Source of the DNA: a virus
Taxonomy: Duplodnaviria; Caudoviricetes
DNA length: 39,949 nt
Direction: 5' to 3' (one strand)
Virus record (IMG/VR): IMGVR_UViG_3300044983_000114
Span: 1-39,949 of that record
In this document: one piece after another, positions 934 through 39,949 of the stretch
How positions within the stretch are numbered: the first letter of the stretch is position 1
Layout: each line of letters begins with the position of its first letter
Program-made: the position numbers and the translations under genes
The notes under the pieces: generated by a model
Database searches by the model: none
Told to the model about the DNA's origin: nothing
The model's input: the letters and a program-made list of their open reading frames with translations, nothing else

Positions 934-1212
934 TCACTGGCTCACGTACTCCTTGCTTGCATCGCCATCGGGACGTCGTCGGCCCGTACTCGGGTGCCTC
1001 ATCCATCCCTCCGGTTCACCGCTGCCATCCCACAGCGCGAGAGCGACGACCGCCGCTCCGGGTGTGTCGTATCACCAGACATCATCAAACGATCCGTCGA
1101 TGCCCTCGCTGTTGAGGCCGATCCGCGCGCGGCCAAACGTGAGCGGTACGATGCTCGCCGTCCGACCGTTCGCGAGCTTCCAGTCGCGCAGGAGGAATTC
1201 GTCGTCCCTCAA
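934..1212 (-). CDS. Phage hypothetical protein with in-frame TGA at 1072-1074 (candidate selenoprotein, 92 aa)
   Basis: TTG start overlaps the upstream stop (TTGA). The frame continues past the TGA as FDDVW*YDTPGAAVVALALWDGSGEPEGWMRHPSTGRRRPDGD to a stop at 934. SECIS-like hairpin at 1041-1058. Confidence 0.6.
1041..1058 (-). promoter_or_regulatory. Bacterial SECIS-like hairpin
   Basis: GAGCGGC-GGUC-GUCGCUC: 7-bp stem with a G-first loop, loop starting 20 nt after the in-frame UGA. Confidence 0.5.
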
Positions 1213-1451
1213 CCGTGCCCCGTGCACGAGCGCGCGGTGAGCTCCGCGGTCCACTTCTGCTCACACCAGAAACAACCCGTTCCCTCGATTGACAGCAGGT
1301 TCTCCGTGTCCAGCAGGAATTGATCGGCCGTTGGGTCCACTCGATACATCGCCAGCACGACCCACAGGTGCTCGCCCTGACGCTGCTCGGGAAGCTTAGC
1401 GTGATACTTGTGACGAGCCTCGACTTTGACCCCTACGCCACGGACTTCCAC
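1209..1451 (-). CDS. Hypothetical protein with C-terminal CxxC (GCFWCE...SCTG)
   Basis: GTG at 1451 after a G-rich SD; its stop overlaps the start of the next gene. Confidence 0.6.
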   Translation of the reverse strand: MEVRGVGVKVEARHKYHAKLPEQRQGEHLWVVLAMYRVDPTADQFLLDTENLLSIEGTGCFWCEQKWTAELTARSCTGHG

Positions 1452-3434: not shown

Positions 3435-3845
3435 TCACACCTCCGCCAGCGTTCCGTTCTCCACCCTCGCCTGCTTCGCGAGATGCTCCTCGCGCGTGAA
3501 ATCGTCCCGCGTCACCGCCACGTTGCGCGGCGCGTCGATCATGAGCGTTGCCTGCTCCGCCCGGTCGCAGCCCTTGAACAGCACGCGCACGCCGCGGCCG
3601 ATGCAGATCAACTCGCCGATCTCAATCTCGTGCGAGGTCATTTCCACGCCGTCGTCCGCATCGAGCTCCCGGTCGACCTGGCGAGCCAGGTGCATCTCGC
3701 TCGCCACGTCAGGCCCGCTCACCACGATGCCTCGCGAGGCCTCCACACCCAGCTTCACGCAGTCGCTGAATACCTCGAGCACCGTTACCCGCACCGAGCG
3801 CCCGATGTAGAAGCCGCGCCCCGGCCGCCGCCAGATTGGCAACAC
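3435..3845 (-). CDS. csrA: Tandem CsrA/RsmA-domain protein (putative translational regulator)
   Basis: Domain 1 MLPIWRRPGRGFYIGRSVRVTVLEV..VKLGVEAS and domain 2 IGELICIGRGVRV...LMIDAPRNVAVTRDD both align by eye to CsrA [46 protein letters not shown]. Confidence 0.75.
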   Translation of the reverse strand: MLPIWRRPGRGFYIGRSVRVTVLEVFSDCVKLGVEASRGIVVSGPDVASEMHLARQVDRELDADDGVEMTSHEIEIGELICIGRGVRVLFKGCDRAEQATLMIDAPRNVAVTRDDFTREEHLAKQARVENGTLAEV

Positions 3846-19076: not shown

Positions 19077-19687
19077 GCCGGGACTTCCTGCGGCAACTCA
19101 CGCATCGGGATGAGCGCCGACGCGGTGTGCCCGCCCAGCCATTCGATCTTCGGCTCGTCGGTGTCGAGCCGTGAGAACCGCAGGAACGAGATGAACGTCT
19201 CCCGTGGCAGCGCTTCGGCGACGGGATACTCCAGCGACAACGATTCGGTCCCGTCGCCGTTGTCTACCGCGTGAGTGATCTGCCGGTAGGTGAACGCGCC
19301 GCCCGGAGCTCGAATCGCGACGTGGCGCCGTGCGCGTCCGACGGGATACACGTTCGCCGCGTAGCCGTGCGACTCCACGGTGATGATGGACACGCCGGCC
19401 CCGTGGTCAGCCGCGAGCTCGAACGCGCGTGTCCAGGTCGCGCACCAGAACGGGACCGCGCGACCGAGCTGCGCGATGACGAACGCCCGCAGCGCAGCTA
19501 CTTCGTCGCGCGTCACGCACGACCACGCGAACTCGAACAGCCCCTCATCTGCCGAGGCGGCCGCCGCCACGTCGCGGACGCCGGTCTGACTGTTCATCTC
19601 GAACAGGGTGCGTGAGGTCGTGTCGCTCGTTCCGCCGTCCACACGGTCCGGCTCCAGCTCGAGCACCGTATAGCCGCGGTAGGTCAC
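19073..19687 (-). CDS. Distal tail protein, C-terminal half paralog
   Basis: YRGY.VLE.EP, LRAF....GR.VPFW, ISFL...RLD.D...I.W; GTGA overlap at 19687. Confidence 0.7.
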   Translation of the reverse strand: MTYRGYTVLELEPDRVDGGTSDTTSRTLFEMNSQTGVRDVAAAASADEGLFEFAWSCVTRDEVAALRAFVIAQLGRAVPFWCATWTRAFELAADHGAGVSIITVESHGYAANVYPVGRARRHVAIRAPGGAFTYRQITHAVDNGDGTESLSLEYPVAEALPRETFISFLRFSRLDTDEPKIEWLGGHTASALIPMRELPQEVPA

Positions 19688-33090: not shown

Positions 33091-33503
33091 TTCTCGTGCG
33101 CCGGCAGTGCAAGCTGGCCCGATTGGAGCGCCTTCAGGTGTGGAACGGCCCACTGGCCCATCGTCACGCCATTCGGCAGCACGACGTCGGCGAGGAACTC
33201 GCGCTCAAACGAGCTGATGCCCGACTGCACGGCCTCGAGCTTCGCTTTGATGATCAGCAGGAGGCACCGCCAACGCCGGCGTTCCTCGGCGCGGCGCCGG
33301 GCCTCGCTGCGGATCTTCGCCGGATCAGCCATCGGCAGGTGGATCATCACGGCCGTGTCGTGGACGCGGAACGCGACGTGGGCGCCGGCGTTCGATTCCC
33401 AGCCGCTCTGGAACTGCGAGCACCCGTAACCCGCGAGCACGCGCTCGATCTCCGAGCGGCTGCGCTCGACCGGGACAGACGTGCGAGCGGCGTAGCGTGT
33501 CAC
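33087..33503 (-). CDS. Conserved phage hypothetical protein
   Basis: YA..TSVPVERS..EIE..L..YG...WR.L.L.IKAKLEAV.SGI..FE.EFL...LP.G.T. Confidence 0.8.
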   Translation of the reverse strand: MTRYAARTSVPVERSRSEIERVLAGYGCSQFQSGWESNAGAHVAFRVHDTAVMIHLPMADPAKIRSEARRRAEERRRWRCLLLIIKAKLEAVQSGISSFEREFLADVVLPNGVTMGQWAVPHLKALQSGQLALPAHEK

Positions 33504-34966
33504 TTTTTCTTACCCTTCGGTTTTGCTGACGTCTGCACGGCGGCGTGCTGCTTCTCGATCGCGGCGACGTCGACGCCCAGTGCCCGCGCGATTTCAGGCA
33601 GCTCGCGCGGCCCGGCCCAGCCGTCGTTGTGTGTATCGAGGATGACGATCGTCGCGCAAAATCGCACGAGATCCTCCGCTGTCTTTCCGATCGGCTGCAT
33701 CTTTTCGTACTTGGCGATCGCGCCGCCGCGCGCGGCGCGATCGAGCAACCCGCCGACGATCAGCCTGCCCAGCGGCGTGTTGCCATGCGTGGCTGCCGTC
33801 TGAACCTTTTCCGAGATTGCGCGCAGCAGCGGACCCTGGATCCGCTTGTACTTCTCGATCTCTCGCTGGCGCTTCTCCTGCTCGATGCGGTTGCGCTTCT
33901 CCCAGCTGTCCTCCTTCGGCTTCGCCTTCGTCGCCGGCGCCGCCTCGGCCGCCTTCGCGCGCTCGGCCTTCTCGCGGATCTCCTTGCCCCAGTGAGTGCG
34001 GCACTTCTCGCGCGCGATGCATACCTGGAGCGATTCGCCCCGACGTGGCCCCACGACCACCACGCCGGTGATCGAGTGCTCGCACTTCTTCGAGCGGTGC
34101 TCGCCGTCCGCGCGCTTCCATGACCGTGGCCCGAAGGTGCGCGCCTGGGGGTCGCGGGCTTCCGGCTGCACGTAGTGCTCGTGGGTGATCATGATCACCT
34201 TGCGGTCCTGCGACTCGGCGGCCTTGAGGTCGAGATAGGCGTGTGGGAACAGCATCGGATCGACCGCGGCCGCCTTCGCTTCGAAGCGGACGTTGTCGTC
34301 GATCCACGCCTGCAGCTCGCGAACGCTGCGCGCCTTCATGCCGGCGTAATGGTCCTTCTCGGGCAGGTTCGGGTCGTAGGGGTCCCACAGCTCGTTCTCG
34401 TGCTGGAACAGTGCCGTCGTGTCGTTCGTGTCGATCGCCCGGTTCTGATCGGCCGGCTTGAGCCGCGCCAGCAGGATGGCGTGGCCGGCGGTGATTCGGC
34501 CCGCGACGAGCAGCTCCTGCGCGACGGGCACCATCTGTGTCAGCTTCACGCGGTCGTACACGTATTTGAGCGACATCCCGATCCGCTCGGCGATCCTCTC
34601 GGCGGTATAGCCGTGTTGGGTCATCAACACGGCGTAGCCCTGAGCTTCCTCGAGCGGGGAGAGGTTCGCGCGCTGCAGGTTCTCGAGGATCATCAACTCC
34701 ATCACCGCCTGGTCGTCGACGTCGCGGATCACCACCGGCAGTTCGGTGAGCTCGGCGCGCTTCGCGGCGCGGTACCGGCGGGCGCCGCCGATGATCTCGT
34801 ACCCGTGACCGTTCTTGCGCACCAGGAGCGGCACGATCACGCCGTTCTGGCGCACGCTCGCCTCGAGCTCCGCGAGCGCGGGTTCATCGAAATCCTTGCG
34901 CGGGTTGAGCGGGTGCTCCTTGAGCTTGCCGATCGGCAGCATCTGGAACTGGGCAGCCTGTTGCAC
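33500..34966 (-). CDS. parB: ParB/Spo0J-family protein
   Basis: NPRK.FD...L.EL..SV...GVI.PLLVR, GARRYRAA, ENLQR..LSPLEEA, then an HTH. GTG start after AAGGAG. Confidence 0.9.
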   Translation of the reverse strand: MQQAAQFQMLPIGKLKEHPLNPRKDFDEPALAELEASVRQNGVIVPLLVRKNGHGYEIIGGARRYRAAKRAELTELPVVIRDVDDQAVMELMILENLQRANLSPLEEAQGYAVLMTQHGYTAERIAERIGMSLKYVYDRVKLTQMVPVAQELLVAGRITAGHAILLARLKPADQNRAIDTNDTTALFQHENELWDPYDPNLPEKDHYAGMKARSVRELQAWIDDNVRFEAKAAAVDPMLFPHAYLDLKAAESQDRKVIMITHEHYVQPEARDPQARTFGPRSWKRADGEHRSKKCEHSITGVVVVGPRRGESLQVCIAREKCRTHWGKEIREKAERAKAAEAAPATKAKPKEDSWEKRNRIEQEKRQREIEKYKRIQGPLLRAISEKVQTAATHGNTPLGRLIVGGLLDRAARGGAIAKYEKMQPIGKTAEDLVRFCATIVILDTHNDGWAGPRELPEIARALGVDVAAIEKQHAAVQTSAKPKGKKK

Positions 34967-34977
34967 GGAGATCTCCT

Positions 34978-35469
34978 TCAGGCGATGGGGCGTTCGCGGC
35001 CGTGACGACGGAAGTATTGCGAGCAGTTCGTGCACCGCCCCCTGCGCGATGGCCGGGCCGCCCGTGAGCAGTTCGAGCATGTGACAATCGGGCGCGGCTT
35101 GATCAACTCCGGGTGCCGGCGTTTCCAGTGGCGATCGCCGGCGTACGTCTGCGGATTGCGCTGAAGGTACTGCCGGCCCTTCGCGGCCATGTCGCGGGCG
35201 TTGTCGCCGCGGGTACCGACGAACAGGTGTGCCGGATTCACGCAGAGCCGGACGTCGCAGTGGTGAAGCACGCACATCCCGTCAGGAACGTCGCCCTTCA
35301 CGATCTCGTAGGCGACTCGATGCGCGAGCGCGGTCTTGCGGGAACCGATGCCGGCGCGTCCGTAGCCCCCAGCTGCAGGCGAGCCCTTCCAGAGCCAGCA
35401 GCCATCACCGGATACGATGGTCACTCGCGCCCAGAACCACGCGAGCGCGCTGGCATCGAGGGCGGTCAC
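34978..35469 (-). CDS. HNH endonuclease (HNH_3 type)
   Basis: CWLW.G....GYG, AHRVAY, VLHHCD...CVNP.HL..GT..DN..DM..KGR. Confidence 0.9.
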   Translation of the reverse strand: MTALDASALAWFWARVTIVSGDGCWLWKGSPAAGGYGRAGIGSRKTALAHRVAYEIVKGDVPDGMCVLHHCDVRLCVNPAHLFVGTRGDNARDMAAKGRQYLQRNPQTYAGDRHWKRRHPELIKPRPIVTCSNCSRAARPSRRGRCTNCSQYFRRHGRERPIA

Positions 35470-39013: not shown

Positions 39014-39949
39014 TTAGGCTTGCCACTGAGGTTGGTACGCTTCGCCGCGCTTACCGAACGTCGACGCGATGGCGTTGCGCGCCGTCAACTCCTGCGGCTC
39101 ACCCAGCTCGTCACCACCCAGCATCGGCCGCAGCTCGGGATGGACCGGGAGAAAGTGCACCTTGGGCGTGCCATCGTCGTTCTTCACGACGTCGACCACG
39201 CGCACAACCATCAGTTTCTCGCCGTCCTCGAACTCGCGCGTGTAGAGCTCGCCCCAATCGTCGACGTGGATCCGCGTCATCCCCGAATCCTTCACGTAGC
39301 GGTCGAGCCCGTAGCGTTCGGTCATCACGCGACGGACCTCGGCGTTCTCTTCGGACTCGATGTGCTCGAGCGTGATCCAGTCAGGCCGAACGATCACGAA
39401 CGCCGGCACGAACACGCCGTGCCAGAAATACAGATTCTCAGCGTCGGATTCGACCGCGGCGTGAGTCGCGTTGTGCAGACGTCGCGTGCCATTGGCGCTC
39501 GTCTCAACATGTACCACCGGCTTTGCAACCCAGTAGAGCGTGCTCTCGGTCCAGAACATAAACCACGCGCCCGAGATGAACGCCTCGAACATGGGCTTCG
39601 CCCAGGCGACCTTCTTCGAGGTCCCGAGCTGCTCGGAACCGATGTGAACCGTAGCCAGTACCGATGCCTCCCACCACCACCACCAGCCCGACCATCTGCC
39701 AGACAAGTGAATACACCAGGAGGCAAACCTCCGATCGGCGGCGCGGGCGGCGCGGGCGTCGCGGGCGTCGAGGGCGGCGCGGGCGTCGAGGGCGGCGCGG
39801 GCGTCGAGGGCGGCGCGGGCGGCGCGGCCGTCGAGGGCGTCGCGGGCGGCGCGGGCGTCGCGGGCGTCGAGGGCGTCGCTGGCGGCGCGGGCGTCGAGGG
39901 CGGCGCGGGCGTCGAGGGCGTCGAGGGCGGCGCGGGCGTCGAGGGCGGC
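39014..39949 (-). CDS. DUF6745-like protein with N-terminal tripeptide repeats (5' truncated)
   Basis: Frame is open to the window edge; RLHN...A.....LYFWHGV.VP, I..E.NAE.RRV..E.YG, L.V.P, TA..A.A.TFG motifs. Confidence 0.8.
   Translation of the reverse strand, partial: AALDARAALDALDARAALDARAASDALDARDARAARDALDGRAARAALDARAALDARAALDARDARAARAADRRFASWCIHLSGRWSGWWWWWEASVLATVHIGSEQLGTSKKVAWAKPMFEAFISGAWFMFWTESTLYWVAKPVVHVETSANGTRRLHNATHAAVESDAENLYFWHGVFVPAFVIVRPDWITLEHIESEENAEVRRVMTERYGLDRYVKDSGMTRIHVDDWGELYTREFEDGEKLMVVRVVDVVKNDDGTPKVHFLPVHPELRPMLGGDELGEPQELTARNAIASTFGKRGEAYQPQWQA
39736..39949 (-). repeat. Coding tandem repeat of 9-bp units (ALD/ARA/ARD)
   Basis: About 23 units of GCCCTCGAC, GCCCGCGCC or GCCCGCGAC running off the window end. 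Confidence 0.9.

What the first reader, a model, noticed from the sequence alone, without database searches (positions are those of the whole stretch)
934..1212. Candidate phage-encoded selenoprotein: in-frame UGA at a probable Cys position followed by a SECIS-like hairpin
Seen: the ORF track stops at the TGA (1072-1074), but the frame continues 45 codons with a conserved-looking sequence (FDDVW*YDTPGAAVVALALWDGSGEPEGWMRHPSTGRRRPDGD). It is followed by a 7-bp hairpin GAGCGGC-GGUC-GUCGCUC whose loop starts 20 nt after the UGA. Known: bacterial SECIS elements lie just 3' of the UGA, with a G early in a small apical loop (E. coli fdhF loop contains GGUC), and Sec usually aligns with Cys in homologs. 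From memory only, related small phage proteins read D.WCY....A..A...WDG..EP.GW.RHP..GRRR, which puts Cys exactly at this TGA. TGA is the normal stop elsewhere in the window, so this is not genome-wide recoding. Inference: the phage may use the host SelABC machinery to make a selenoprotein of an uncharacterised family.
Basis: partly seen in the sequence, partly recalled or inferred. Interest (0 to 1): 0.85.

Follow-up and report, generated by a model that had tools for sequence, protein, structure and literature searches.

The report
Phage selenoprotein family with covarying SECIS
A small gene of an uncultured soil phage carries an internal UGA "stop" where relatives have cysteine, and dozens of divergent relatives keep both that UGA and a co-varying RNA hairpin behind it, so the phage most likely borrows its host's machinery to insert selenocysteine, which no paper I found reports for a virus of bacteria.

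Summary
Confirmed, on the minus strand. The gene at 1212-934 (92 codons) has an in-frame UGA at codon 47 and a GGUC-capped hairpin 20 nt downstream. The hairpin alone is ordinary (z about -1; 12% of the window's TGA triplets pass the same SECIS model). The comparative evidence is decisive. Of 141 dereplicated loci (window included), 97 have TGA at this column, 31 a Cys codon, 3 TAG and 10 something else; 169 of 196 database proteins have Cys there. In the TGA genes, the three most covarying of 190 third-position pairs are exactly the hairpin's three; Cys alleles show none. Code 4 and pseudogene decay are excluded. The three TAG alleles keep the hairpin, and two sit beside actinobacterial marker genes, a phylum with published UAG-reading tRNA-Sec. 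No phage record carries selC or selD, so host machinery is inferred. The host is unidentified and insertion untested. The protein has no Pfam or NCBIfam family and no clear fold match; its role is a guess. I found no published phage selenoprotein. This scan has noted such candidates before on other DNA, probably including this family (e1-9773552).

The parts
934..1212 (-). 92-codon gene of an unnamed, mostly viral protein family, with one internal UGA at codon 47
   Evidence: homologs; AlphaFold2 model pLDDT 88.8 and 90.7, with Cys in place of Sec
1072..1074 (-). in-frame UGA, predicted selenocysteine 47, in a D-x-W-(C/U)-Y motif
   Evidence: Cys in 169 of 196 proteins; TGA in 97 of 141 dereplicated loci
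1041..1058 (-). SECIS-type hairpin: 7-bp stem, GGUC loop at 1051-1048, in which G1051 and C1048 covary as a pair around a GU tip
1209..1212 (-). TTG start overlapping the TGA stop of the upstream ORF (likely translational coupling)
946..1032 (-). codons 61-89: the family's near-invariant C-terminal block (W61, E66-P67, G69-W70, R72-H73, G77-R78-R79-R80, G83-D84, E88), made only if the UGA is read through
934..936 (-). true stop codon, also TGA, with no conserved hairpin role; internal control against TGA reassignment
   Evidence: 66 of 97 TGA members end on TGA

Best explanation
The gene has an in-frame UGA at a cysteine column followed by a covarying hairpin, and it most likely encodes a 92-residue phage selenoprotein made by the host's selenocysteine machinery. 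Shown: the UGA, its alignment with Cys, the open conserved frame behind it, and selection on the RNA hairpin in UGA and UAG alleles but not in Cys alleles. Inferred from established bacterial biology: host SelB carrying Sec-tRNA(Sec) binds the GU-tipped hairpin 20 nt downstream and inserts Sec in competition with termination, so full-length protein would appear only in cells with active SelABCD and selenium; otherwise a 46-residue stub lacking the invariant C-terminal block is released. Inferred, weakly (about 35%): the product is a non-structural accessory protein, a four-stranded meander plus helix with an Arg-rich C-terminal block, that binds a phosphate-bearing host target (nucleic acid or nucleotide-bound protein), with Sec/Cys47 as a reactive or metal-binding residue. 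The confidence below is for Sec insertion, not for this function.
For: Column: Cys in 169 of 196 proteins; TGA 97, Cys codon 31, TAG 3, other 10 among 141 loci dereplicated at 85% nucleotide identity, window included. Covariation at synonymous positions (U of UGA = 1): pair 21-30 Watson-Crick in 79 of 97 (shuffled 28.0; all four pair types), 18-33 in 74 of 97 (32.0), 24-27 in 92 of 97 (61.0); Cys alleles 13, 8 and 14 of 31, at shuffle level. These three pairs rank 1-3 of all 190 third-position pairs from -12 to +48, also after dereplication at 70% (63 genes). Five core pairs intact in 83 of 97 TGA, 3 of 3 TAG, 0 of 31 Cys, 0 of 10 other. G25 in 92 and U26 in 95 of 97. Published bSECIS criteria (PMC13188914, Fig. 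2A) met by the window, 84 of 97 TGA (80 at spacing 20), 3 of 3 TAG, 4 of 31 Cys, 1 of 10 other. The same GGUC occurs in E. coli fdhF at 22-25, and a GGUC/GGUU tip at 32-33 nt in 21 of 21 TGA alleles and 0 of 9 Cys alleles of selD from one bacterial phylum, so spacing 20 lies inside the natural range. Frame open for at least 44 codons after the TGA in 96 of 97. No tRNA-Sec over cut-off in 46 phage records and no selD in 47; no tRNA in the window.
Against: No experiment, proteomics or RNA data. The host is unknown (best capsid match in 301 genomes of one phylum 39%). The genome-bin evidence does not discriminate: the two bins with selA, selB, selC and selD that hold TGA alleles (G002, G003) are matched by bins with Cys or Asp alleles that also have sel genes (G004, G005 selA; G006, G007 selB, selC, selD), and G001 holds the same gene as G002 without any sel gene. 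The hairpin lacks the U17 bulge and the G23 position that E. coli SelB needs on fdhF (PMC8659212). 13 of 97 TGA alleles fail the bSECIS criteria, one is broken by a TAA right behind the TGA (L127). The selD gene of G002 itself showed no hairpin by my test. The column tolerates Asp, Glu, Gln, His and others, which argues against an essential redox-catalytic Sec. Part of the stem conservation is tied to the encoded Ala-Ala-Val-Ala/Val-Ala peptide, so only the third-position pairs count as RNA evidence.
Confidence: 0.92

Rival explanations
1. Programmed stop-codon readthrough without selenium: the hairpin stimulates near-cognate decoding of UGA (Trp or Cys), giving a set ratio of stub and full-length protein.
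For: Structured 3' elements are known to stimulate readthrough in viruses (PMC3159437, search listing only). Three database proteins have Trp at the column. The hairpin is not an exact fdhF match.
Against: The column is Cys, not Trp, in 169 of 196 proteins, and no TGG was found at it in 141 loci; one Trp protein (P0005) matches locus L152 in peptide and contig length, and L152 has TGA, so it is a gene-caller artefact. The invariant GU tip at a fixed 20-nt spacing is the SelB-binding signature, not a generic stable stem.
Confidence: 0.04
2. Nonsense mutation or a gene split into two pieces; the downstream part is dead or translated on its own.
For: One allele has TGA followed at once by TAA (L127). 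Gene callers stop at the TGA.
Against: The same stop at the same column in 97 divergent genes (63 below 70% identity; median terminal branch 0.54 substitutions per site), with an intact frame in 96 and synonymous covariation. The joined sequence folds as one confident domain with the site on an internal strand.
Confidence: 0.02
3. These phages or their hosts have reassigned UGA genome-wide (code 4 Trp or code 25 Gly).
For: UGA reassignment exists in some phages (recalled; no call).
Against: 66 of 97 of these very genes end on TGA at the family's C-terminus; 335 TGG codons and no second in-frame TGA in the 35 codons before the site or up to the first stop (the downstream half of that zero holds by construction, the open frame across two conserved Trp columns in 96 of 97 does not). 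The window's long genes end mostly on TGA (24 of 35 ORFs) and match phage profiles unbroken.
Confidence: 0.005
4. Sec is inserted, but the point is regulation rather than chemistry: UGA plus SECIS makes the protein conditional on the host's selenium or SelB state, and the residue itself matters little.
For: The column accepts Asp, Glu, Gln, His, Tyr; all near-invariant residues lie behind the UGA, so termination would switch the protein off.
Against: Most non-Sec alleles keep Cys (169 of 196), which points to chemistry at this position. This reading is compatible with the best explanation and differs only in purpose.
Confidence: 0.2

Closest known systems
Bacterial selenoprotein genes with an in-ORF SECIS read by SelB (consensus bSECIS model; prototype E. 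coli fdhF)
   Same: In-frame UGA at a Cys column; hairpin in the coding region; G-led 4-nt loop; spacing within 16-37 nt; identical GGUC tetranucleotide in fdhF.
   Different: Phage-borne; GGUC at 24-27 rather than 22-25; perfect stem without the U17 bulge; protein matches no Pfam or NCBIfam family and has no CxxU or thioredoxin-type motif.
Poxvirus selenoproteins (molluscum contagiosum GPx1, fowlpox GPx4; PMC8310308 passages)
   Same: A virus relying on the host's Sec machinery; the fowlpox SECIS also lies in the coding sequence.
   Different: Those are captured cellular glutathione peroxidases of eukaryotic viruses with eukaryotic SECIS; this family is mostly viral, uses a bacterial-type SECIS and has no known cellular selenoprotein counterpart in what I searched.
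PHROG phrog_24748 (unknown function), including Caulobacter phage CcrBL9 gp257
   Same: Same protein family: 24 of 63 aligned members match it, best E 5.6e-13; CcrBL9 gp257 is a tblastn hit.
   Different: The window's protein itself does not match at E 0.01; the four cultured phages and four plasmids read all have TGC at the column; no function and no Sec form recorded.
UAG-encoded selenocysteine of Geodermatophilaceae (tRNA-Sec with CUA anticodon; PMC5330540 passages)
   Same: Three relatives have TAG at the column with the hairpin fully intact; L031's record carries WhiB and L159 lies beside an Lsr2 gene.
   Different: Their hosts are not identified; the markers point to Actinomycetota, not to this family; TAG is one substitution pattern away from TGG or a plain nonsense change.

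Membership tests
Bacterial selenoprotein gene (UGA + bSECIS) | In-frame UGA with conserved coding sequence on both sides | tested here: met
   frame open at least 44 codons after TGA in 96 of 97
Bacterial selenoprotein gene (UGA + bSECIS) | UGA aligns with Cys in homologs and with UGA in other homologs | tested here: met
   Cys in 169 of 196 proteins; TGA in 96 of 140 other loci
Bacterial selenoprotein gene (UGA + bSECIS) | bSECIS model: 3-9 nt loop, 4-16 bp stem, G in first two loop positions, spacing 16-37 nt, energy at most -7.5 kcal/mol | tested here: met
   window: loop GGUC, 8 bp, 20 nt, -11.8; criteria from PMC13188914 section 5; my own script, not bSECISearch
Bacterial selenoprotein gene (UGA + bSECIS) | Hairpin under RNA-level selection, specific to Sec alleles | tested here: met
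Bacterial selenoprotein gene (UGA + bSECIS) | UGA is an ordinary stop elsewhere in the genome | tested here: met
Bacterial selenoprotein gene (UGA + bSECIS) | selA, selB, selC, selD present in the translating cell | tested here: inconclusive
   host unknown; present in bins G002 and G003, absent from G001, also present in bins with non-TGA alleles; not on the phage records
Bacterial selenoprotein gene (UGA + bSECIS) | Selenium shown in the protein; dependence on SelB | not testable with these tools
   needs 75Se labelling, mass spectrometry or a reporter
E. coli fdhF-type SECIS (strict) | Bulged U17 and G23-U24 at fixed distance from the UGA | tested here: not met
   GU at 25-26 and an unbulged stem; requirement from PMC8659212 passage
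Known bacterial selenoprotein families (BSepDB, 111 families) | Sequence homology to a catalogued family | tested here: inconclusive
   no Pfam or NCBIfam match; the BSepDB supplement was cut when stored and its family table S2 was not seen
phrog_24748 | Profile match | tested here: inconclusive
   24 of 63 family members match, the window's protein does not
AP2/ERF-like nucleic-acid-binding fold | Three-stranded sheet packed on a helix with significant structural match | tested here: inconclusive
UGA-reassigned (code 4/25) phage | UGA used as sense codon throughout the genes | tested here: not met

The most novel reading that the evidence does not exclude
A phage-native selenoprotein family, with no cellular selenoprotein counterpart, spread over many unrelated soil, sediment and freshwater phages of several host phyla, whose Sec codon follows the host's tRNA-Sec anticodon (UGA in most, UAG in phages of UAG-reading actinobacteria) and which makes a phage function conditional on the host's selenium machinery.
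Probability: 0.5. Interest if true: 0.92.

Novelty: new variant of a known kind. Interest (0 to 1): 0.82.

Why it matters
The recoding mechanism is known, but the 2025-2026 prokaryotic selenoproteome review, database and predictor papers that I checked do not contain the words phage, virus or viral, and the viral selenoproteins I found in print are captured poxvirus peroxidases. A phage-native family would show that viruses of bacteria evolve Sec use on their own genes, that gene callers hide such genes by cutting them in two (the protein databases held almost only the Cys forms, while DNA searches returned mostly TGA forms), and that selenium supply or SelB can gate phage functions. Nearly a hundred natural SECIS variants with one fixed geometry give a ready test set for SelB recognition rules, and the codon at this site could serve as a host marker.

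Tried and rejected
Folding the window's hairpin alone: not significant. Rfam around the gene: no match to E 5. Pfam, NCBIfam, PADLOC, PDB sequence search: nothing credible. Fold searches on two models: no Foldseek match at E 0.001 in PDB or BFVD, best VIA-align Z 4.7 and 5.4 among tied unrelated chains; this shows neither a new fold nor a function. ESM Atlas: unnamed, mostly viral clusters at 0.91-0.92; best named leads PsiB 0.75 and Nmad4 0.76, below the trust level. Gene neighbourhood: no shared partner; the commonest neighbour family occurs at 11 of 141 loci and the window shares none. Longer fused forms: 3 proteins, no Pfam. Tree of 140 proteins with the site and the hairpin codons masked: 14 changes needed for the Sec label, but only 3 of 137 branches strongly supported and the careful search unfinished, so one origin is not ruled out and I make no claim on direction or number of switches (one of 141 rows dropped for a short upstream part). 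Host search by capsid protein in one phylum: 39% at best. A second family-type motif in the window (TGA at 19547) is out of frame in a tail gene, a chance match, 1 of 1278 other TGA triplets. A TAG inside a formate dehydrogenase of G723 is not at the Sec site and has no hairpin. The record classed as a provirus (G050) showed no recognisable host genes at its ends by eye. No RNA holder listed.

Full report
Observation. The feature lies on the minus strand. Bases 1212-934 read 46 codons, a TGA at 1074-1072, 45 further codons and a final TGA. The TTG start overlaps the stop of the upstream ORF, as in a packed phage operon. The hairpin is as described: a 7-bp stem (1058-1052 with 1047-1041) and a GGUC loop that starts 20 nt after the UGA. 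On its own it is unremarkable: z between -1.3 and +1.0 in five folds, and 84 of 677 minus-strand TGA triplets in this 66% GC window pass the published bSECIS criteria. The window is a tailed phage record, 56% complete, with portal, capsid-protease, tape measure, tail, GH108 lysin, RecE, ParB and DnaC-like genes. The gene sits among small accessory genes downstream of the replication module. The only run holding the stretch is a soil metagenome that may be its source.

The column. A protein search gave 53 homologs, 41 with Cys at the UGA column; a profile search found 2306 representatives at 50% identity, and among the 196 proteins aligned, 169 have Cys and 27 another residue. Protein databases cannot hold the TGA forms intact, so I searched DNA: 14 and 80 (best of 138) viral loci, 80 (best of 388) metagenome loci and 8 genome loci. 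One locus did not cover the column. After removing duplicates and dereplicating at 85% identity, 141 genes remained, window included: TGA 97, TGC/TGT 31, TAG 3, other 10. These loci were ranked by likeness to the window's protein, so the proportions are not the family's true make-up. Of the 96 other TGA genes, 45 are on IMG/VR viral contigs, 49 on metagenome contigs and 2 in genome bins. All four cultured phages and four plasmids that I read have TGC.

The RNA signal. Numbering the U of UGA as 1, the hairpin pairs 21-30, 18-33 and 24-27 join third codon positions and so test RNA selection apart from protein. In TGA genes they are Watson-Crick in 79, 74 and 92 of 97, against 28.0, 32.0 and 61.0 in shuffles; in Cys genes 13, 8 and 14 of 31, at shuffle level. 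Shuffles ignore relatedness, so I ranked all 190 third-position pairs between -12 and +48: these three rank first to third with excess 0.53, 0.43 and 0.32, the next is 0.13, and the result holds for 63 genes below 70% identity; none of the three is among the top seven in Cys genes. On nine sequences the stated structure beat every slid control. Positions 24 and 27 switch together (GC 73, AU 12, CG 7) around G25 and U26 (92 and 95 of 97). The five core pairs are intact in 83 of 97 TGA, 3 of 3 TAG, 0 of 31 Cys and 0 of 10 other alleles.

Comparison with real SECIS elements. The consensus model (PMC13188914, section 5 read) asks for a 3-9 nt loop, a 4-16 bp stem, G in the first two loop positions, 16-37 nt spacing and at most -7.5 kcal/mol. 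My script found this in the window, 84 of 97 TGA (80 at spacing 20), 3 of 3 TAG, 4 of 31 Cys and 1 of 10 other alleles. E. coli fdhF has the same GGUC at 22-25, but E. coli SelB needs U17 and G23 (PMC8659212, passages), which this hairpin lacks, so it is not a strict fdhF-type element. As a positive control, selD genes from 30 genomes of one phylum showed a GGUC/GGUU-tipped hairpin at 32-33 nt in 21 of 21 TGA alleles and 0 of 9 Cys alleles; one further selD (G002) showed none. The phage spacing lies between these natural cases.

Rivals. Genome-wide UGA reassignment fails: 66 of 97 of these genes end on TGA at the family's C-terminus, the frame crosses two conserved Trp columns without a TGA in 96 of 97, and the window's long genes end mostly on TGA. 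One Trp-bearing database protein matches locus L152, which has TGA. Pseudogene decay fails on the same conservation, though one allele (L127) is broken. Selenium-independent readthrough cannot be excluded without experiment, but a Cys column, no TGG among 141 loci, and an invariant GU tip argue against it.

Machinery and host. No tRNA-Sec over cut-off lies in 46 phage records (the weak hits are ordinary tRNAs) and no selD in 47, so the machinery would be the host's. The host is unknown. Bins G002 and G003, which hold TGA alleles, have selA, selB, selC and selD, but G001 holds the same gene as G002 with none of them, and bins with Cys or Asp alleles also have sel genes; this is compatible but not discriminating. 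The TAG alleles are suggestive: all three keep the hairpin; L031's record is one of 3 of 46 with WhiB over cut-off and L159 lies beside an Lsr2 gene, and Geodermatophilaceae read UAG as Sec with a CUA tRNA-Sec (PMC5330540, passages). Three cases and phylum-level markers do not prove codon tracking.

The protein. AlphaFold2, given Cys at 47, predicts one compact domain (pLDDT 88.8 and 90.7): four strands, a helix at 51-60 and a structured C-terminal block, with residue 47 on the fourth strand. All near-invariant residues follow the UGA, so termination would give a non-functional stub (inference). There is no Pfam, NCBIfam or PADLOC family; 24 of 63 members match phrog_24748 of unknown function. 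Fold searches give only tied weak hits to small meander-plus-helix proteins such as MmoD, an AP2 domain and AcrF1. There is no conserved neighbour and no second conserved Cys. My best guess, about 35%, is an accessory protein binding a phosphate-bearing host target through its Arg-rich block, with Sec/Cys as a reactive or metal-binding residue; substitutions by Asp, Glu, His and Gln lean towards a ligand role rather than redox catalysis. This is inference only.

Novelty. Searches for phage selenoproteins (listings and abstract starts) found none. Term searches in the full text of PMC13188914, PMC13326102 and PMC12013277 gave no occurrence of phage, virus or viral; passages of 10.1101/2022.07.06.499078, PMC5029168, PMC10778597 and PMC4607533 added nothing on phages. 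PMC8310308 (passages) names poxvirus peroxidases as the viral selenoproteins. [quoted passage not shown] The BSepDB supplement was cut and its family table unseen, and subscription journals are largely missing from the library. Earlier notes of this scan report many phage selenoprotein candidates; one shares 3 of 17 words with this protein and is probably the same family. They are unchecked and not counted as support.

Verdict. The mechanism works like, and by every sequence test available belongs to, bacterial UGA/SECIS recoding; selenium insertion itself and the host's sel genes are untested. A phage-native selenoprotein family is a new variant of a known kind. Confidence in Sec insertion 0.92; interest 0.82.

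Noticed in passing
L031:2618, L118:603, L159:2593: Three relatives have TAG instead of TGA at the Sec column with the hairpin fully intact; two lie with actinobacterial marker genes (WhiB, Lsr2).
   Followed up: partly
L037, L054, L073, L078, L106, L158 and one more: Seven TGA alleles use a variant tip, C-GU-G with the 3' strand shifted by one base (a bulge after the tip), a second SECIS geometry within the family.
   Followed up: partly
L127:1590: TGA followed at once by TAA while the hairpin and downstream frame are intact: a recent pseudogene, an assembly error, or a protein ending in Sec.
   Followed up: no
L152:950 and protein P0005: A database protein reads the TGA as Trp, apparently because the gene caller chose code 4 for a short contig.
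   Followed up: partly
window 1209-1442 (-): Upstream gene coupled to the selenoprotein gene ends in a CxxC...C motif with His residues, possibly zinc-binding; no Pfam or PHROG match and no homolog among the neighbours of other loci.
   Followed up: partly
window 3435-3845 (-): CsrA-like regulator with two matched stretches in one 136-aa protein (tandem CsrA domains).
   Followed up: no
window 33500-35275 (-) and 39014-39706 (-): Long ParB-like protein and a DUF6745 protein; no terminase was recognised in the record, which is 56% complete.
   Followed up: no
L095 / L096: The same phage-like stretch with the TGA gene lies on 83-kb contigs in two bins of different phyla, so at least one is mis-binned.
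   Followed up: partly
L229, L231, L233 and 117 plasmid records: Cys forms of the family occur on plasmids, including Pseudomonas megaplasmids; one sits beside a restriction-modification pair (L229) and one between an SOS-associated peptidase and dinB (L231).
   Followed up: partly
L141 and L142 (one 133-kb contig): Two distinct copies of the family on the same contig, about 26 kb apart.
   Followed up: no
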